The translations under genes were made by a program, and so were the position numbers. A DNA stretch of 20,000 nt from an uncultured virus (IMG/VR IMGVR_UViG_3300042014_000090) (Duplodnaviria; Heunggongvirae; Uroviricota; Caudoviricetes): the IMG/VR virus record IMGVR_UViG_3300042014_000090; one strand, given 5' to 3'. Each line of letters begins with the position of its first letter. The stretch's first letter is position 1. This document shows positions 3,116-18,977 of the stretch, piece by piece. The notes below the pieces were generated by a model. The model saw nothing but the letters and a program-made list of their open reading frames with translations, had not been told where the DNA came from and ran no database searches.

Positions 3116-3742
3116 TTACTCGCCGTCGTCCTCGGCACCATCGGCCTTGGCGGCTTCATCCGCCGCACGCAGCCGGTCGGCGATCTGCGCCTTCGACCCG
3201 TACGAGGCCACGCCTCGCTTGTCGGCCTCGTCGCGCAGCTCGGCGAGCGTCTTGCCCGCGTACGGGTCCGGCTCGACCGGCTCCGGCGCAGCCTCAGCCT
3301 CGGGCTCGGCGTCGGGGGACACCGTCTCCGGCCCCGCCTCGGCAACATAGGTGGGGTGCCCCTGACCGGCCTCGGCTCCGGCCAGGGGCAGGCTCGCGAC
3401 GGCGTCCGGGGAGGATTCCGCCTGCTCGCGAGCGTTCGTAGCACCGCCATGCACGGTGATCTTCGGGGACACATCATCCTCCACAGGGGGCCAGGGAACC
3501 TGCACCTGAGACCCGCACGAGGCGCAGAAGAGATCAGGAAGCTGCACCAGACCAGGCAGCGGCCCGGACAACCGGATCGTCCACGGGCCGCGCCCACAGG
3601 TGCAGAAGACAGTGGTGAAGGAAGGGAGCCGCCGCGACACGACGACCCCCTCCTCCACATACTCGGCGCCACCGCAGTGCGGACAGGCGTCGAGGCCGAC
3701 AGCGAAACGCGTCGTACACCCGACGCACGTCAACATGCTCAT
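3116..3742 (-). CDS. Double Zn-ribbon protein with a C-terminal SAP/HeH/Rho-N-like helical domain
   Basis: CVGC..CPHC and CTC..CASC pairs, an acidic Pro/Ala linker, then YAGKTLAELRDEADKRGVASYGSKAQIADRL. Confidence 0.7.
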   Translation of the reverse strand: MSMLTCVGCTTRFAVGLDACPHCGGAEYVEEGVVVSRRLPSFTTVFCTCGRGPWTIRLSGPLPGLVQLPDLFCASCGSQVQVPWPPVEDDVSPKITVHGGATNAREQAESSPDAVASLPLAGAEAGQGHPTYVAEAGPETVSPDAEPEAEAAPEPVEPDPYAGKTLAELRDEADKRGVASYGSKAQIADRLRAADEAAKADGAEDDGE

Positions 3743-4699: not shown

Positions 4700-5212
4700 T
4701 TACGAGTTCAGGTTTGCCAGGTTGGTCGGCTTGCGCATGACCATCAGGTCGTGCGCAACGTTGAGGATCGCGACGTGCTTGGTGCCGTTCGTGCCCAGGT
4801 CGGGCACGTTCAGCGACACCCACTCGAAGCCGTCCGAGAGCTGCTCGGCGCGGACCTCGACGACCACGAGGGTCTCCTCGGACGCCGCACCGACGTTGGT
4901 GATCTCGGACGCCGCCGACTGCGAGCCCTCGGTCCAGGTCTCGTCACCGTCGAGCGTGGTCTCGCTCTGGTAGTAGTACTTGGTGATGATGTCGAGATCC
5001 TGCGAGGTGCCGCCGGAAGCCGCGTTGTGCTCCTGGAGGTCCAGGTCGAGGATGTCGGTGGACGCACCCGTCGCGACGACGATGAACGACACGCCGCCGC
5101 AGTCCTTGAGGTGGATGCGGTTGCCGGTGATGGCGCCCGCCACCGCGTCCGTCGGCACTGCGCCGACGGAGACGTTGAACAGGCGACCGAGCGCGCTTGC
5201 GCCAGTGGCCAT
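4700..5212 (-). CDS. Putative capsid decoration/cement protein, 170 aa
   Basis: Strong AAAGGAG RBS; strongly GC3-biased codons; first structural gene after the capsid gene once the nuclease cassette is set aside. Confidence 0.6.
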   Translation of the reverse strand: MATGASALGRLFNVSVGAVPTDAVAGAITGNRIHLKDCGGVSFIVVATGASTDILDLDLQEHNAASGGTSQDLDIITKYYYQSETTLDGDETWTEGSQSAASEITNVGAASEETLVVVEVRAEQLSDGFEWVSLNVPDLGTNGTKHVAILNVAHDLMVMRKPTNLANLNS

Positions 5213-5233
5213 GGTTCTCTCCTTTGAGATGCC

Positions 5234-5300
5234 GGGAACGACGGGGTGTGAATGCCGTCGTCCCCACGGCTCCGGCTTGGGTGTGAATGCGCACCGGAGC
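5234..5300 (-). promoter_or_regulatory. Twin RNA hairpins with the identical loop CAUUCACACC (candidate cis-regulatory RNA)
   Basis: 12-bp direct repeat GGGTGTGAATGC at 5244-5255 and 5279-5290, each copy enclosed by a different stem. Confidence 0.65.
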
Positions 5301-5328
5301 TGTGCGGGCCGCCACGCAAAGCGGCATG

Positions 5329-5365
5329 AAAAAGACCCCCAGGGACCGGAGTCCCAGGGGGTCTT
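5329..5365 (-). terminator. Rho-independent terminator after the endonuclease VII pair
   Basis: Plus-strand AAGACCCCC-A-GGGAC-CGGA-GTCCC-A-GGGGGTCTT; the minus-strand RNA ends in a UUUUU tract. Confidence 0.75.
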
Positions 5366-5378
5366 GCTTGGGGGTTAT

Positions 5379-5852
5379 TCAGTTGTTCGAACGGAGCCGG
5401 AGCTGAGCAGCTCTCAGGTTCTCCGCCACGCGGCGGATGCGGTCGGGATCATCCTTGAATCTCCCGATTCCCCTGTTGCAGGACCAGCAGGCCAGCCCTC
5501 TCACGCATTGCCCGCAGGTTTTCTCGCCAGGGCAGCACGTGTGGTCATGGTCTACGTGTATCGACCGACGATTCGCCTCAACGTCGAACGGCTTAAGGCA
5601 CAAGTAGCAGCATCCATTCTGGGAGTCCAGGAGGGACTGCCATGCCTCGTTCGTCAGCCTGTACTTGGCATACAGACGATTACGCAGACCCCACTGTCGA
5701 GAGGCGGTGCGGGCGGCTTCAGGATCTGCTGCGTATCTCTGTCGGGAACGCTCACGCTGGTACGCCCTCACTGCATCCGCGTCCGTCCAGTCGATCTTGC
5801 TGGGACGGCTATGCCTGCGACAGGTGCAGCCTTCGGCGCACGACGGGCTCAT
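5379..5852 (-). CDS. Endonuclease VII-like (His-Me finger) nuclease with one CxxGCxCxxH unit
   Basis: QNGCCYLC...IHVDHDHTCCPGEKTCGQCVRGLACWSCNRGIGRFKDDP; ATGA overlap with the upstream paralog. Confidence 0.88.
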   Translation of the reverse strand: MSPSCAEGCTCRRHSRPSKIDWTDADAVRAYQRERSRQRYAADPEAARTASRQWGLRNRLYAKYRLTNEAWQSLLDSQNGCCYLCLKPFDVEANRRSIHVDHDHTCCPGEKTCGQCVRGLACWSCNRGIGRFKDDPDRIRRVAENLRAAQLRLRSNN

Positions 5853-6514
5853 CGTGCCTCCATGGCGCGGATCGCAGATTCCAGGCGCGCAGCGACCAGG
5901 AGCATCAGTTCGGGATCTTCTCCGAAATCTCCTATTCCGCTGTTGCAGTCACTACATGTCAGACCTCGAATGCACTTTCCGCACGTCTTCTCCGTGGGGC
6001 AGCAGCGATGGTCGTGATCCACATGAATGGCCCGGCTGTCACCTCGGCGCAGTTGGTCTCCGCAGAGATAACAGAGGCCCTCCTGCTGAGTGAAGGCGTG
6101 TTCCCACTGACGCACGGTCATTCGGTACTTGGACCAGTACGGGTTCTTGACATACCAGTTCCGGCAGGCTTCCCGATTCTTCTCCGGGTCGGCCGCTACC
6201 TGCTGACGCCTGCGCTCTCGGTCAACTGCTAGTTGCTCTTCGCGTGTTCGCTTCGGTCGTTTCGGGGGAGTGTGGCGCTTGCACGTGCAGCCATCAGGGC
6301 ACTTCGCCCCCTTGTTGACAGAGGCACCATGCCGCCCACACGTACACCCCGGCGCGCACGCTTTTGACTTGTGCCGCCCACACGTGCAGCCATCAGGGCA
6401 CTTCCCGAATTTGAAGGGGAGGCTATGACGACTGCACGCGCAGCCCGGCTCGCAAGGCCGTGAACGATGCTTACCGCAGGTGCATCCTGGGGCGCATCCC
6501 TTGATCTGAGTCAC
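5849..6514 (-). CDS. Endonuclease VII-like (His-Me finger) nuclease with five CxxGCxCxxH repeats
   Basis: QEGLCYLC...IHVDHDHRCCPTEKTCGKCIRGLTCSDCNSGIGDFGEDP; repetitive Cys/His-rich N-terminus. Confidence 0.88.
   Translation of the reverse strand: MTQIKGCAPGCTCGKHRSRPCEPGCACSRHSLPFKFGKCPDGCTCGRHKSKACAPGCTCGRHGASVNKGAKCPDGCTCKRHTPPKRPKRTREEQLAVDRERRRQQVAADPEKNREACRNWYVKNPYWSKYRMTVRQWEHAFTQQEGLCYLCGDQLRRGDSRAIHVDHDHRCCPTEKTCGKCIRGLTCSDCNSGIGDFGEDPELMLLVAARLESAIRAMEAR
6282..6404. repeat. 24-bp direct repeat CACGTGCAGCCATCAGGGCACTTC underlying two of the Cys/His repeats
   Basis: Identical copies at 6282-6305 and 6381-6404; also TGCCGCCCACACGT at 6330-6343 and 6372-6385. Confidence 0.9.
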
Positions 6515-6520
6515 ATTCAG

Positions 6521-6550
6521 ATCTTATCCAGTGGATCGAGGAAGATCCAA
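6521..6550 (-). promoter_or_regulatory. Putative leaderless sigma70/HrdB-type promoter for the endonuclease VII pair
   Basis: TTGGAT-N18-TAAGAT, with the -10 box 6 nt upstream of the GTG start; no SD sequence. Confidence 0.6.
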
Positions 6551-6569
6551 ATGTGACTACATAGAGCGA

Positions 6570-7925
6570 TCAGGCTCGTGCCGCGAGCTGGACAAACGGG
6601 CTCAAGGTGTTGCTTCCCGTCTGCGGAGTGATAGCACTCTGCAACCACGGGCGGCCGTCCACCCTCTCAATGAATCGCATCGAGGTCATGTCGGTCTGGA
6701 AGCGGTAGTGCGGGCTGGTGTCCGCCTGAATGGCCTGGCGGTCACCGATGAGGTAGTGCGACAGGTCGGCGAGCACAATGTCGCCCGCGTCGCCGAGGGT
6801 CGGCATCTTCTCGGTGAACAGCACCGGACGGCCCAGGATCCGCATGGGCGGGCCGGAGACGCCGTCGGTGAGCCAGATCGCCGAGCCGCCGGTGCCGACG
6901 GACAGGGACATGGTCGCCAGCTCCGGGAACGTGTCCAGGTTGGCGATCCAGACCGCACTGTTGAGCGAGGACGGCAGCATCCGCGCGTACATCTTGACCA
7001 GGTTTTCCCAGACGATGGTGTCCGCTGCCTGGCCCGATTCCTTGGTCACGGAGACCATGGCGGGGGAGTTGAGGAAGCCGAGCGGCTCGCCGACGCCGGA
7101 GCCGCCGATGAAGGCGATGTCCTCGAACCAGGCGATGGCCTCGGGGAAGATCTCGTTGATCAGCATCTGGAGGCTGATCAGGGAGTCCGCGAACAATTCA
7201 TTCGGGACTTCCGAGTAGGCGGTGAGCTTCTTCGCCTCCAGCTTGACCCGGCCGAAGGTCGGGGAGCTGTCGGTGAGGGTTCCGGCCTCTTCGGTCCAGT
7301 ACGCCGCGACGCCGCCGTAGATGTTCGAGGCGTTGGACGTGGAGTCGATCATCGGGAACGGCAGGGTCAGCGTCTCCATCGGGATGACGCGGGCCCGCGA
7401 GCGGACCACGGCCTTCTCCAGCGCGATGCGCAGCAGCTCAGCCCGCAGGTACTCGGGGATGAGGAAGCCACCGTCGGCGGGGACGTTGGAGCCGAGGCTG
7501 TTCATGATGGAGCGGATCTTGTGCTGCGCGGCGGTCGCCTCGGAGGTGCGGGTGCCGTGCCAGATCGCCTTCATGAAGTCGCGGACGTCGGGGAACTCGT
7601 CGTCGAGCTTCGCGCCGGGGGCGCCGGGGTTGTAGCGGTCGCCGAGGCGGCCCTTGTCCTGCGCCTTCATGGCGAGGTTGAGGCGCTTGGCGTCGCCCTT
7701 GACGTCGATGGAACCGGAGTCCCGGACGTACTTGGTGATGCCTTCCTGGATGCGGGCGTCGAGCTGCTCGTCCAGGTCGCCGCCGGAGGCCTTGTTGAAC
7801 TGGGCGGCATAGTCCTTGACGAAGGACAGGGCGCCGTCGCGGGTGGCGAAGACTTCCTTGACTACCGAACCGTCGTTGAACATCTCTTCGAGTTCGGAGT
7901 CATTGCGCGGGATGACAGGTGCCAT
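6570..7925 (-). CDS. Major capsid protein, HK97 fold
   Basis: DGGFLIP, WTEEAG, FGRVKLEAKKL, VPNELFADS, GSGVGEPLG, ILGRPV, RVDGRP motifs; N-terminal scaffold-like region of about 140 aa; TAATG coupling to the protease gene. Confidence 0.95.
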   Translation of the reverse strand: MAPVIPRNDSELEEMFNDGSVVKEVFATRDGALSFVKDYAAQFNKASGGDLDEQLDARIQEGITKYVRDSGSIDVKGDAKRLNLAMKAQDKGRLGDRYNPGAPGAKLDDEFPDVRDFMKAIWHGTRTSEATAAQHKIRSIMNSLGSNVPADGGFLIPEYLRAELLRIALEKAVVRSRARVIPMETLTLPFPMIDSTSNASNIYGGVAAYWTEEAGTLTDSSPTFGRVKLEAKKLTAYSEVPNELFADSLISLQMLINEIFPEAIAWFEDIAFIGGSGVGEPLGFLNSPAMVSVTKESGQAADTIVWENLVKMYARMLPSSLNSAVWIANLDTFPELATMSLSVGTGGSAIWLTDGVSGPPMRILGRPVLFTEKMPTLGDAGDIVLADLSHYLIGDRQAIQADTSPHYRFQTDMTSMRFIERVDGRPWLQSAITPQTGSNTLSPFVQLAARA

Positions 7926-9115
7926 TAGATCCAGCCCTCCTTGAGCTGAGCGAACACGTCATCCGCGCTGGGCGACGTGGCATGAAGAAGGCCGACCATG
8001 GAGTCCCATGTGTCGGCCTGGTCGGTGGGGGCGTCCCCCTCCTCGTCGGGAGGGGCGTCCTCGTCGTCTTCCTCTTCGTCCTCGTCGGGCGGAGGGAAGG
8101 CGTCCTCGGGTGCGGGGGTTTCCGCAGCCGGGGAGTCGTCCGGCTGCGGAGTCTCAGCGACCGGATCCAGCCCGCTGACGACGAGTTCCGTCGGCGCGAA
8201 GTGGTCGGCGATCTCCTCGCGGACCGCGCTGCGCACCAGTTCCCGAAGCGTGTTCAGGAGGGTGTCGTCGACGCCGGTGGCGGCATCGGCCAGCGGCTCG
8301 GGCGTGGTGGCGAGGTTGGTGAGGGTCTCGGTGCTGAGCTGGTGGGTGCCGAGCGTCTGCGCGGTGATCACCTGCCCGGCCATGGCCACGGGGGCGGGGA
8401 CCTTCGGTGCGGGGGCCTGCTCGCGTCCGGCGTAGCGGTACATCGACAGGTCCCAGGACTGGTGCATGCGCGCGTCGGCGGAGGCCGGTTCGGCGTCCTG
8501 CTTGGGCTTCATGGGCATCGCCTCGTCGGCGAGACCCATGGCGACGGCTTCCTTGGCGGTGAACCACGTCTCGGCGGCCATCAGGTCGAGGAACTCGTCG
8601 ACGGACCGGCCGGTGCGTTCCGCGTAGGCTTCGGCGATGTTCCGGGTCTGGAACTCCAGAACCTCGGCCATCTTGATCATGTCGGTGGAGTCGCCGTAGC
8701 AGCCGCCGGACGCCGCGTGGATCATGACCTGGCTCTGGGGCCGCATGACCACCCGGTCACCGGCGAGCATGATGACCGAGGCGATCGATGCGGCCAGGCC
8801 GTCGACGTAGACGGTGACGTTGGCGGGGTGGGCACGAAGCGCGTTGGCGATCGTGATGCCTTCGAAGACGCTGCCCCCAGGAGAATTAAGACGGAGGTTA
8901 ATCTTCGAAGTGGTGACACCGCTCAGCTGCTCGATAAACTCGTCAGCATAGAGGCCAAACCAACCGCCGATGCTGTCGAATACGAATACATCCGTACTGT
9001 CTGAGTCTTCGACAGAGTTCTGAATTCTGAACCAGTCGGATGCGTTTTCAGGAGGCTGCATCCCTGGGGGGACCTGCCTCTGTCGACGCTCCGCCGCCAG
9101 CTTGATCAGCGGCAT
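7925..9115 (-). CDS. Prohead (head maturation) protease, ClpP-type, with an acidic Pro-rich C-terminal extension
   Basis: NSPGGSVFEG, VDGLAASIAS (catalytic Ser), MIH, ETWFTAKEAVAMGLAD; start moved to MPLIKL (9115) on an AAAGGAGG RBS. Confidence 0.92.
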   Translation of the reverse strand: MPLIKLAAERRQRQVPPGMQPPENASDWFRIQNSVEDSDSTDVFVFDSIGGWFGLYADEFIEQLSGVTTSKINLRLNSPGGSVFEGITIANALRAHPANVTVYVDGLAASIASVIMLAGDRVVMRPQSQVMIHAASGGCYGDSTDMIKMAEVLEFQTRNIAEAYAERTGRSVDEFLDLMAAETWFTAKEAVAMGLADEAMPMKPKQDAEPASADARMHQSWDLSMYRYAGREQAPAPKVPAPVAMAGQVITAQTLGTHQLSTETLTNLATTPEPLADAATGVDDTLLNTLRELVRSAVREEIADHFAPTELVVSGLDPVAETPQPDDSPAAETPAPEDAFPPPDEDEEEDDEDAPPDEEGDAPTDQADTWDSMVGLLHATSPSADDVFAQLKEGWI

Positions 9116-9713
9116 CTGCGGTCGCCTCCTTTCGGCGTCTGAGTCGCTGTTGATGTGTGCGTTCGGCGTGACAATTCGCACACACCACGTCGCACTTGGC
9201 TATTTCCGCCAGCAGTGCATCGACAGACCGTCCAGCTCCTCGCGGTCCGATTCCGAACAGCTTGGTGGCAGGGTCCCTGTGGTCGAACTGCATGACGTAG
9301 CTGGGGTACTTGACGCCGCAATCCATGCACGGCTTGTCTTTCGCCTCGTCAATCACCGCACGTCTGCGCTTGTATTTGTCATGAGCCTTTACCGGGTCAT
9401 AAGACTCACGCCTGTAAGCACGGCGTTGGTCAGCAGTGTCTGCATACCACTCCCGCTGATAATCTCGGCGGAACTCCCGGAATGCTTCTATCTCCTCTTG
9501 CGACCGAGATGCATCTCGCTTACGGCGAAGCTCCCTGATGTGCTCTCGGTTATTTTCGCGAAAAGGGCGCTGACGTGCGTTTACGGCGTCAAGGCATGCT
9601 CGACATGCGGGCTCACCTGCGGCTCGGTGGGCCTGGTAGCCAGGATCAGTTCCTGTGCGCCCTTCGGGGTACTTCCTCGTAGGCTTCGCGCAGGCAGGGG
9701 TATGCTGAGACAC
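9048..9713 (-). CDS. HNH endonuclease with an N-terminal Cys/His Zn-binding motif (probable free-standing homing endonuclease)
   Basis: CMDC...MQFDHRDP...KCDVVCANCHAERT; N-terminal GTDPGYQAH...GEPACRAC; lower GC; 3' end overlaps the protease start by 68 nt. Confidence 0.88.
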   Translation of the reverse strand: MSQHTPACAKPTRKYPEGRTGTDPGYQAHRAAGEPACRACLDAVNARQRPFRENNREHIRELRRKRDASRSQEEIEAFREFRRDYQREWYADTADQRRAYRRESYDPVKAHDKYKRRRAVIDEAKDKPCMDCGVKYPSYVMQFDHRDPATKLFGIGPRGAGRSVDALLAEIAKCDVVCANCHAERTHQQRLRRRKEATADAADQAGGGASTEAGPPRDAAS

Positions 9714-18754: not shown

Positions 18755-18786
18755 AAAAGCCCCGCCTCAGGATTGAGACGGGGCTT
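18755..18786 (-). terminator. Rho-independent terminator in the leader of terS
   Basis: AAGCCCCGUCUCA-AUCC-UGAGGCGGGGCUUUU; the G-U pair and U-tail both give minus orientation. Confidence 0.75.
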
Positions 18787-18935
18787 GGCGTGGAGACAGC
18801 TCCAATGATGGAGCAGCTGCTTCCAGTGTACGGATGTATTATGAGAAGCAAATAGCATGTGACGCACGTCACTCTCGGCGTGTAGAGTGACGCCCGTTGC
18901 GCGGGGGTCAGCAGCCCTGCCTCCGCCAACACCCC

Positions 18936-18977
18936 GCCCCGGTGCCTGAGTTCCCCCTTCAGGCGCCGGGGCTTTTT
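18936..18977 (+). terminator. Rho-independent terminator with no upstream CDS
   Basis: GCCCCGGUGCCUGA-N9-UCAGGCGCCGGGGC-UUUUU. Confidence 0.75.

What the first reader, a model, noticed from the sequence alone, without database searches (positions are those of the whole stretch)
5234..5300. Twin RNA hairpins with different stems but the identical 10-nt loop CAUUCACACC
Seen on the transcribed (minus) strand: GCUCCGGU-GC-G[CAUUCACACC]C-AA-GCCGGAGC, then 3 nt later GGGGACGACGG[CAUUCACACC]CCGUCGUUCCC. Both loops are closed by G-C, and the G-U pairs work only in this orientation. The pair lies downstream of a terminator and ends about 20 nt before the start of the first decoration gene. Unrelated stems with a conserved loop suggest selection on RNA structure. 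Inference: a two-site protein-binding RNA element (translational operator, nut/put-like antitermination signal or processing site). I do not recognise it as a named family.
Basis: partly seen in the sequence, partly recalled or inferred. Interest (0 to 1): 0.75.

Follow-up and report, generated by a model that had tools for sequence, protein, structure and literature searches.

The report
Twin-hairpin RNA before phage cement gene
Two neighbouring RNA hairpins with near-identical 10-base loops, sitting between the capsid gene and the next head gene of a Streptomyces-type phage, belong to a conserved and so far unnamed RNA element found at the same spot in dozens of related phages and prophages; what it does is not yet known.

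Summary
On the minus strand, hairpin 1 (5300-5269) and hairpin 2 (5265-5234) both carry the loop CAUUCACACC. They lie after an intrinsic terminator and 21 nt before the ATG at 5212.

The element is real and conserved. I collected 49 distinct copies from viral contigs, actinobacterial prophages and the cultured Streptomyces phage Dagobah. The stems differ but stay complementary: 82% of cells are paired against 56% in shuffles, and 20 of 22 pairs show double changes. The loops keep G|CAnUnAnnCC|C.

There is one copy per genome, always in the sense orientation. It always sits between an HK97-type major capsid gene and a jelly-roll gene that probably encodes a cement or decoration protein. Any inserted DNA lies upstream of it. 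No Rfam family matches, and five literature searches found no description.

- Identical loops occur in only 7 of 49 copies.
- G-U pairs favour the sense strand only modestly (16 G-U against 6 A-C), and the antisense strand folds more stably.

Function is unresolved. My best guess (about 0.4) is a cis-acting 5'-UTR element in which a host factor binds the loops and tunes translation of the downstream gene. The rivals are put-like antitermination, RNA processing or stability, and a DNA-level role.

The parts
5231..5303 (-). Whole twin-hairpin element, as matched by covariance model R1
   Evidence: 79.1 bits, E = 1.5e-12, full-length 1-73/73. The model was built from 26 distinct copies.
5269..5300 (-). 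Hairpin 1: 8-bp stem including one U-G pair. Its loop region GCG[CAUUCACACC]CAA has a possible inner G-C pair. Loop at 5289-5280.
   Evidence: Helix cells are 90-93% paired across 49 copies, and 10 of its 11 pairs show double changes.
5234..5265 (-). Hairpin 2: 11-bp stem including one G-U pair, with the 10-nt loop CAUUCACACC at 5254-5245
   Evidence: The inner four pairs are paired in 45-49 of 49 copies, and 10 of 11 pairs show double changes.
5308..5325 (-). hp0: small upstream hairpin GCCGC-UUUGCGUG-GCGGC, present only in the 'long-form' subgroup
   Evidence: RNAalifold on 7 loci gives 5 pairs, one of which switches G-C to A-U in 3 of 7 sequences.
5329..5364 (-). Intrinsic terminator (GC-rich hairpin plus U5) after the second EndoVII gene
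   Evidence: The six other long-form loci carry equivalent terminators with different stems.
5218..5224 (-). Shine-Dalgarno sequence AAGGAGA of the downstream gene, 9 nt after hairpin 2
   Evidence: 5-nt spacer to the ATG.
4700..5212 (-). Downstream gene (170 aa): jelly-roll protein, probably a capsid cement or decoration protein
   Evidence: No Pfam, PHROG or NCBIfam hit. AF2 pLDDT 91.5. VIA Z-scores: 10.9 for YomS/XepA, 9.1 for phage 7-7-1 capsid chain G, 7.6 for BPP-1 cement protein, 6.3 for KHP40 cement protein.
6570..7925 (-). HK97-type major capsid protein gene; the element follows this module in every copy
   Evidence: PF05065 at 2.3e-54. An MCP homologue lies upstream in 27 of 27, 22 of 22 and 5 of 5 loci.
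5379..6514 (-). Two tandem Endonuclease VII-family genes (6514-5849 and 5852-5379) inserted between the capsid gene and the terminator plus element
   Evidence: PF02945 at 4.7e-16 and 6.8e-19; PHROG endonuclease VII. Absent from most relatives.

Best explanation
Shown, about 0.9: this is a conserved, single-copy structured element of a lineage of temperate actinophages, made as part of the late-operon mRNA. It has two hairpins of about one helical turn each, and each presents a 10-nt loop G|CAnUnAnnCC|C. Inferred, about 0.4: it acts in cis as a 5'-UTR element of the gene just downstream, a probable capsid cement protein. The two loops would be docking sites for a host-encoded factor (an RNA-binding protein, or the 30S subunit itself). 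Occupancy next to the Shine-Dalgarno sequence would set how much of that protein is translated relative to the major capsid protein. This works like two-hairpin translational operators such as the E. coli thrS operator (recalled, not tested). The factor, and whether the effect is repression or enhancement, are unknown.
For: Structure is under selection.
- In 26 distinct copies, 79.6% of cells are paired against 55.9% in shuffles (0 of 500 shuffles reach it), slid controls reach at most 55.9%, and 20 of 22 pairs show double changes.
- In 49 copies the figures are 82.2% against 56.4%.

The loops are conserved.
- C1, A2, C9, C10 and the closing G-C are invariant in both loops of all 26 copies; U4 is also invariant there.
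- The consensus is met by 46 of 49 first loops and 45 of 49 second loops.

The position is fixed.
- There is one hit per phage record or host genome.
- All hits are on the gene-sense strand.
- The element always lies between the MCP module and the cement-like gene.

The element is linked to the downstream gene.
- In 11 of 27 loci extra DNA (terminator plus hp0, EndoVII genes, small ORFs) separates the MCP gene from the element. No locus has a gene between the element and the downstream start.
- The four decayed 'single' forms keep the SD-proximal hairpin.
- Two loci have a grossly expanded first loop but a canonical second loop.
- In short-form copies the base of hairpin 2 reaches the 5' edge of the SD: pair 68-93 is formed in 45 of 49 copies, 8 with double changes.

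A host factor is more likely than a phage one.
- No ORF is shared by the three element-bearing genomes and missing from the element-free one, apart from shadow frames.
- Hosts span several actinobacterial families.

The sense strand is modestly favoured: 16 G-U against 6 A-C in 367 well-defined helix cells.
Against: - Predicted SD accessibility is the same with and without the element: mean P(unpaired) is 0.45 for long-form (n=7), 0.46 for short-form (n=22) and 0.51 for no element (n=11); Mann-Whitney p = 0.72 and 0.41.
- In the window itself the SD lies 9 nt beyond hairpin 2 and is free.
- The element has been lost several times. The tree needs 10 changes, at least 6 of them forced by well-supported branches. 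Relatives then simply join the MCP stop to the SD within 19-40 nt, so the element is dispensable.
- The element subtype tracks the MCP lineage rather than the cement lineage.
- Adjacency to the SD may only reflect tight gene packing.
- No binding factor is identified, and no expression data could be obtained.
Confidence: 0.4

Rival explanations
1. Put-like processive antiterminator. The folded nascent RNA binds the host RNA polymerase without any phage protein and makes it resistant to pausing and termination across the long tail and lysis part of the late operon.
For: The size and shape resemble HK022 putRNA, which is about 70 nt (73 nt modelled) with two long stem-loops, needs no trans-acting protein and acts over at least 10 kb (passages of PMC9378689). 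Here the model has 73 positions and two hairpins. No phage-encoded partner was found. The element is sense-oriented, single-copy, and lies ahead of many kb of late genes. The window's closest full relative, G003, has 7 terminator-like hairpins downstream on the sense strand.
Against: The element lies deep inside the late operon after the capsid gene, not just after a promoter. Dagobah and G004 carry the element but have 0 strict terminator-like sites downstream, and none was found in the 5.2 kb downstream within the window. Decayed forms keep only the SD-proximal hairpin, whereas put uses both stems. No sequence comparison with put was possible.
Confidence: 0.2
2. RNA processing or stability determinant. 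The hairpins mark or protect an mRNA end (a 5' stabiliser of the downstream segment or a 3' stabiliser of the capsid segment), giving the capsid and later messages different lifetimes.
For: Stable GC-rich hairpins without a U-tract start 4-11 nt after the MCP stop codon in 16 of 27 loci. The element lies between a very abundant structural gene and later genes.
Against: Simple stabilisers need neither 10-nt loops nor invariant loop bases. In the long form an intrinsic terminator lies upstream, so terminated capsid transcripts would not contain the element. Insertions always separate it from the capsid gene and never from the downstream gene.
Confidence: 0.15
3. DNA-level element. Hairpins or a cruciform form in single-stranded or supercoiled DNA, or the conserved 12-14-mers serve as a protein site or as recombination 'linker' sequences at a module boundary.
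For: The antisense strand folds at least as well. A crude count of wobble pairs was symmetric, 27 against 25. The loop-to-loop spacing is nearly constant at 34-38 nt. The junction is a mosaic breakpoint and an insertion hot spot.
Against: A site read in duplex DNA would not need covarying stems. In cleanly defined helices G-U outnumbers A-C 16 to 6. The orientation is always that of transcription. The position is far from the terminase, replication and integration genes. No sigma-70-like promoter was found.
Confidence: 0.08
4. Trans-acting small RNA cut out of the operon transcript, acting like the actinobacterial 6C sRNA through its C-rich loops.
For: It has two hairpins with C/A-rich, G-poor loops. 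The Rfam 6C model aligns full-length at 5229-5303(-).
Against: That match scores 15.8 bits against a gathering score of 47, with E = 9.3. No 6C match appears in 12 related loci at E up to 10. The loops have no C-run, and the element has no promoter or terminator of its own.
Confidence: 0.05

Closest known systems
HK022 put RNA (putL/putR)
   Same: About 70-nt phage cis-acting RNA made of two stem-loops with no dedicated phage protein partner (PMC9378689 passages). The element here has 73 model positions, two hairpins and no co-occurring phage gene.
   Different: Put sits just downstream of early promoters in a lambdoid coliphage. This element sits after the capsid gene in the late operon of actinophages and has twin 10-nt loops of one consensus. 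Antitermination was not tested, and downstream terminators are not consistently present.
E. coli thrS translational operator (recalled, not retrieved in any call)
   Same: Two similar hairpin loops just upstream of an SD. As I recall, they are read by a symmetric protein that competes with the ribosome.
   Different: No binding protein is known here. The loops do not look like anticodon loops. In the window the SD lies 9 nt beyond the hairpin.
6C RNA (Rfam RF01066)
   Same: Actinobacterial, two hairpins, C-rich loops. A weak full-length alignment falls at the same coordinates.
   Different: The score is far below threshold (15.8 against 47 bits). Relatives give no match. The element is embedded in a phage operon rather than being a free-standing sRNA gene.
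Guanidine-II (mini-ykkC) riboswitch architecture (recalled)
   Same: Two tandem hairpins with covarying stems and a shared conserved loop, placed directly before an SD.
   Different: Those loops are 4 nt and self-complementary. The loops here are 10 nt, G-poor and cannot kiss each other. There is no Rfam match.
Mu-gpT-DE RNA motif (recalled: a motif downstream of Mu-like major head genes)
   Same: A conserved RNA structure placed after a phage major head gene.
   Different: As I recall, Rfam holds this motif, and Rfam gave no hit here. The head-protein family also differs: HK97-type PF05065.

Membership tests
Any Rfam 15 family | Covariance-model score at or above the family's gathering threshold | tested here: not met
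   0 matches in the whole window at gathering score. At E up to 10 on 5150-5450 there were only 9 sub-threshold matches. No match at the element in 12 related loci.
6C RNA (RF01066) | Score of at least 47 bits against the Rfam model | tested here: not met
   15.8 bits, E = 9.3 in the window. No 6C match in 12 relatives.
6C RNA (RF01066) | Runs of about six C in each loop (recalled definition) | tested here: not met
   The loops are CAnUnAnnCC, and only C1, C9 and C10 are fixed.
HK022-type put RNA | About 70 nt, two stem-loops | tested here: met
   73 model positions and two hairpins. Put features are taken from PMC9378689 passages.
HK022-type put RNA | Located shortly downstream of an (early) promoter, upstream of the terminators it suppresses | tested here: not met
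   The element lies after the capsid gene, more than 8 kb into the late operon, and in the long form directly after a terminator. Strict terminator-like sites downstream number 0 in Dagobah, 0 in G004 and 7 in G003.
HK022-type put RNA | Binds the RNA polymerase beta' zinc-binding domain and suppresses pausing and termination | not testable with these tools
   Needs transcription assays.
Two-hairpin translational operator (thrS-like) | Hairpin abuts or overlaps the ribosome-binding site | tested here: inconclusive
   In short-form copies the base of hairpin 2 pairs with the first SD bases (pair 68-93 formed in 45 of 49 copies). However, predicted SD accessibility does not differ from element-free relatives, and in the window the SD is 9 nt away.
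Two-hairpin translational operator (thrS-like) | A trans-acting protein binds both loops and competes with the 30S subunit | not testable with these tools
   No phage candidate was found. The downstream protein is strongly acidic, pI 4.3, which argues against autoregulation by it.

The most novel reading that the evidence does not exclude
The element is a protein-independent, RNA-polymerase-binding antiterminator of the put type. It would be the first outside lambdoid coliphages and the first in Actinobacteria. Placed mid-operon, it would make only polymerases that have passed the capsid gene processive through the tail and lysis genes.
Probability: 0.2. Interest if true: 0.85.

Novelty: new variant of a known kind. 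Interest (0 to 1): 0.6.

Why it matters
Few conserved structured RNAs are known in actinophages. This one has unusually clean comparative support: 49 distinct copies, near-complete stem covariation and an invariant loop signature. It has a fixed genomic address between the two most abundant head proteins.

It occurs in a cultured, sequenced phage (Dagobah, host S. coelicolor M600), so its function can be tested directly. Whatever reads the twin loops, whether a host RNA-binding factor, the ribosome or RNA polymerase, would be a new handle on late-gene control in Streptomyces phages. It could also be useful as a compact regulatory part.

Covariance model R1 can serve as the seed for a new RNA family.

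Tried and rejected
- **Loops pairing with 16S rRNA.** A Streptomycetaceae 16S sequence (L101) has 1 site complementary to the loop consensus against 1.15 expected. The best duplex sites differ for each loop variant. Rejected.
- **SD sequestration by the element.** Predicted P(unpaired SD) is 0.45-0.46 with the element and 0.51 without, not significant (one search crashed part-way). Not supported.
- **A closing helix 'P0' pairing the stretch after the MCP stop with GGC after the SD.** It recurs in MFE folds. Cognate and non-cognate duplex energies are -5.72 and -5.28 kcal/mol, permutation p = 0.13. RNAalifold does not predict it in the long form. Left as unproven.
- **A phage-encoded partner.** No real ORF is shared by Dagobah, G003 and G004 and absent from G005. 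This covers only four genomes, by sequence similarity only.
- **Autoregulation by the downstream protein.** Its pI is 4.3. Net charge is about -11 with the element and -12.6 without. Only one alignment column is associated with element presence. Disfavoured.
- **Coding, leader peptide, read-through or frameshift fusion.** The two motif copies fall in different frames (spacing 34-38 nt). My own arithmetic on the MCP-stop positions and the start positions for four loci gives all three residues modulo 3. Rejected.
- **Promoter.** No sigma-70-like site on either strand near the element.
- **Expression data.** Three metatranscriptome runs share only 0.04 of the sampled words. The laid contigs cover parts of 4900-5169 only and are 90-99% alike, so they come from relatives. 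Nothing can be said about transcription.
- **Earlier scan notes.** None exist for this place, sequence or these words.
- **Literature.** Searches found nothing on this element. One search found only a mention of Mu-gpT-DE. Subscription journals are not covered.
- **Complex prediction** was not used, because it cannot take RNA.

Full report
**What is in the window.**
The minus strand carries a phage late operon:
- large terminase, 13538-12027
- portal, 11215-9845
- an HNH gene, 9713-9048
- ClpP-like prohead protease, 9181-7925
- HK97-type major capsid protein (MCP), 7925-6570 (PF05065, 2.3e-54)
- two Endonuclease VII-family genes, 6514-5849 and 5852-5379
- then the region in question

Reading the minus strand, the order after the second EndoVII stop is:
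- a GC-rich hairpin with a U5 tail, an intrinsic terminator (about 5364-5329)
- a small hairpin, hp0 (5325-5308)
- hairpin 1 (5300-5269)
- three bases
- hairpin 2 (5265-5234)
- the SD AAGGAGA (5224-5218)
- the ATG at 5212 of a 170-aa ORF

Both hairpins carry CAUUCACACC closed by G-C. The exact 12-mer occurs only at these two places in the window. The 73-nt stretch folds as drawn at -35.2 kcal/mol, z = -3.88.

**Is it conserved?**
I collected relatives by three routes.
- Using the downstream protein as bait, I fetched 29 viral loci and 23 prophage loci. The prophages are in Streptomyces, Nonomuraea, Catellatospora, Streptosporangiaceae, Sporichthyaceae and several MAGs.
- An exact two-loop DNA pattern gave three more loci with other stems, L023, L025 and L032.
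- A tblastn search of named phages found Streptomyces phage Dagobah (MT711977, host S. coelicolor M600).

The upstream regions show the same two hairpins with quite different stem sequences.

An alignment of 26 distinct copies (A2) gave these figures for my structure:
- 79.6% of 568 cells are paired, against 55.9 +/- 1.4% in shuffles (0 of 500 shuffles reach it).
- With the partners slid by one to three columns, at most 55.9% are paired.
- 20 of 22 pairs have changes on both sides.

I built covariance model R1 from A2.
- Over 44 sources (279 kb) it found 27 matches of 43.6-80.7 bits, one per source, all on the gene-sense strand. The other 17 sources had none.
- In whole records it found one strong hit each in Dagobah, G002, G003 and G004, and none in G005.
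- In three whole host genomes it found exactly the prophage copy (only 150 candidates per genome were scored).
- In 151 genomes of the family of G006 it found 3 carriers (stricter filters, 32 candidates scored per genome). The two new ones, L099 and L100, again lie between an MCP homologue and the start of an ORF of the same kind; the query protein matched it weakly in L099 (27% identity) and not at all in L100, which shares the N-terminal GLGR motif.
Of the 80 loci that were loaded, 22 carry a full element.
- All 22 follow an MCP homologue. The downstream ORF is a tblastn-detectable relative of the 170-aa protein in 17 of 22. The other 5 start with the same ...GLGR.F/I N... motif.

Aligning 49 distinct copies to the model (A4) gave 82.2% of 1070 cells paired against 56.4 +/- 1.0% in shuffles, and again 20 of 22 pairs with double changes. 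This alignment is fitted to the model and so leans towards it. In addition, 23 of the 49 copies were found through loop sequence, so loop statistics are best taken from A2.

**Anatomy of the family.**
- Loops: G|C A n U n A n n C C|C. In A2, C1, A2, U4, C9, C10 and the closing pair are invariant in both loops. A6 is present in 25 and 23 of 26 copies.
- In A4, 46 of 49 first loops and 45 of 49 second loops fit the consensus. Two first loops are expanded to 19-20 nt.
- The two loops of one phage are usually different. They are identical in 6 of 26 copies and 7 of 49.
- The distance between loop starts is 34-38 nt, most often 35.
- Hairpin 1 has 10-13 bp.
- Hairpin 2 is either a continuous 11-12 bp stem, or an inner 4-bp helix plus an internal loop plus an outer pair or two. 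The outer part reaches into the first bases of the SD (pair 68-93 formed in 45 of 49 copies).
- Seven loci, including the window, form a 'long form': terminator, hp0, a hairpin 1 with two fixed mismatches next to the loop, a long hairpin 2, and an SD moved about 10 nt downstream.

**Where it sits.**
- In 16 of 27 loci the element starts 4-11 nt after the MCP stop codon.
- In the other 11 loci something lies between them: terminator plus hp0 (73-110 nt), a small ORF (Dagobah), or one or more genes (up to 1752 nt; 1266 nt with the two EndoVII genes in the window).
- Nothing is ever inserted between the element and the downstream start. The distance from hairpin 2 to the protein match is 12-49 nt.
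- Relatives without the element join the MCP stop to the next start within 19-40 nt.
- Four loci keep only one hairpin, and it is the one next to the SD.

On a tree of the downstream protein (45 rows; L100 is missing because tblastn did not find it), element-bearing phages lie on both sides of the midpoint root. The label needs 10 changes, at least 6 of them forced by well-supported branches. The simplest reading is an old element that has been lost repeatedly. The root was placed for drawing only, so the direction of change is an inference.

The long form goes with MCPs 76-93% identical to the window's, even where the downstream protein is only 51-55% identical (L053, L054). Phages whose downstream protein is 78-81% identical (L046, L047, L066) have MCPs 55-57% identical and carry the short form. 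The junction between the element and the downstream gene is therefore a mosaic breakpoint.

**The downstream protein.**
It has no Pfam, PHROG or NCBIfam match. An AlphaFold model built from 20 homologues is confident (pLDDT 91.5, pTM 0.86) and all-beta.

Foldseek against the PDB gave nothing below E = 0.001. The exhaustive VIA search gave:
- YomS and the XepA C-terminal domain, Z 10.9
- a capsid chain of Agrobacterium phage 7-7-1, Z 9.1
- the jelly-roll cement protein of Bordetella phage BPP-1, Z 7.6
- Carin1 capsid chain B, Z 6.7
- the KHP40 cement protein, Z 6.3

GOLD domains and other jelly rolls score in the same range. 'Probable cement or decoration protein' is therefore a reasonable reading but not a proven one.

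**Which strand, RNA or DNA?**
A crude count over the family gave 27 G-U against 25 A-C.
- In the four cleanly defined helix sets there are 336 Watson-Crick, 16 G-U, 6 A-C and 9 other cells out of 367. This is a modest lean to the sense strand, and the cells are not phylogenetically independent.
- The antisense strand folds more stably in 26 of 26 copies (for the window, -44.0 against -35.2 kcal/mol). This is probably because it is G/U-rich.

The case for a sense-strand RNA therefore rests mainly on three things: the element lies inside a transcribed operon, it always has the operon's orientation, and complementarity without sequence conservation needs intramolecular pairing.

**What does it do?**
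Several specific ideas were tested and failed.
- The loops are not complementary to 16S rRNA beyond chance.
- The SD is not predicted to be less accessible than in element-free relatives.
- A closing helix linking the MCP stop region to the SD is not statistically supported.
- No phage gene co-occurs with the element in four genomes.
- The downstream protein is too acidic to be a likely RNA binder.
- The region is not coding (and my own frame arithmetic on the positions).
- No sigma-70-like promoter is present.
- Public RNA runs gave nothing usable.

What remains is the following:
- two helices of fixed length, each presenting a loop whose conserved bases alternate with free ones; this pattern suits recognition by a protein or a large machine better than base pairing with another RNA
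- physical attachment to the start of the downstream gene
- stronger conservation of the SD-proximal hairpin
- no phage-encoded partner

I therefore favour a cis-acting 5'-UTR element read by a host factor that tunes translation of the cement-like gene (about 0.4).

The put-type model is the strongest rival (about 0.2). It gains from the resemblance in size and shape and from needing no protein (passages of PMC9378689). It is weakened by the mid-operon position and by the lack of downstream terminators in two of three carriers. Processing or stability (0.15), a DNA-level role (0.08) and a trans-acting sRNA (0.05) follow.

**Comparison with known families.**
No Rfam 15 family matches at gathering score. 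The permissive scan lists a full-length 6C alignment at the right place, but at 15.8 bits against a threshold of 47 and E = 9.3, and it does not recur in 12 relatives. The element is therefore not 6C.

It resembles put RNA, the thrS operator and mini-ykkC in architecture only. The last two comparisons are recalled and were not tested here.

Five literature searches found no description. The library lacks most subscription journals, so an earlier report cannot be excluded.

**Verdict.**
This is a real, well-supported and apparently undescribed structured RNA motif of Dagobah-like actinophages. Its function is open, and it is directly testable in a cultured phage and host.

Noticed in passing
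window 5379-6514 (-): Two tandem Endonuclease VII-family genes sit between the capsid gene and the terminator. In relatives the same slot is empty or holds other inserts (Dagobah gene 11; 595-1752 nt in L061, L053 and L045). It looks like an insertion hot spot for homing-endonuclease-like genes.
   Followed up: partly
window 5308-5325 (-): hp0 is a small hairpin with the conserved loop nUUGCGyn directly after the terminator's U-run. It is present in all 7 long-form loci and shows a G-C to A-U compensatory switch in 3 of them. Its role is unknown.
   Followed up: partly
window 4700-7925 and loci L046, L047, L053, L054, L066: There is mosaicism at the junction. The element subtype follows the capsid-gene lineage, not the lineage of the downstream gene. 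This implies recombination between the element and the downstream ORF.
   Followed up: partly
window 9048-9713 (-): An HNH endonuclease gene (PHROG 3106, 4.9e-28) lies between the portal and protease genes. Its ORF overlaps the longest protease ORF (7925-9181) by about 130 nt, so the protease probably starts further downstream.
   Followed up: no
window 18757-18972: Two strong facing terminator-like hairpins (13 and 15 bp, each with a T-run) lie on opposite strands. They probably mark the boundary between divergent or convergent transcription units.
   Followed up: no
window 3116-3742 (-): A 208-aa ORF gives weak, sub-threshold hints of a zinc ribbon (Lar-like, CxxC) and a SAP domain. G003 and G005 have homologues.
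   Followed up: no
L086 / L087; L075; L085: L086 and L087 come from contigs of the same length (40,180 bp) with identical sequence in the part printed, yet are filed under MAGs of two different phyla (Acidimicrobiia and Rokubacteriota). Other carriers are filed under Dehalococcoidia and Paracoccaceae MAGs. These are probably binning artefacts, so host range beyond Actinomycetota should not be inferred.
   Followed up: no
L150/L188 and L134 (viral contigs): In these variant elements the first loop is expanded to 19-20 nt and loses the consensus, while the second loop stays canonical.
   Followed up: partly
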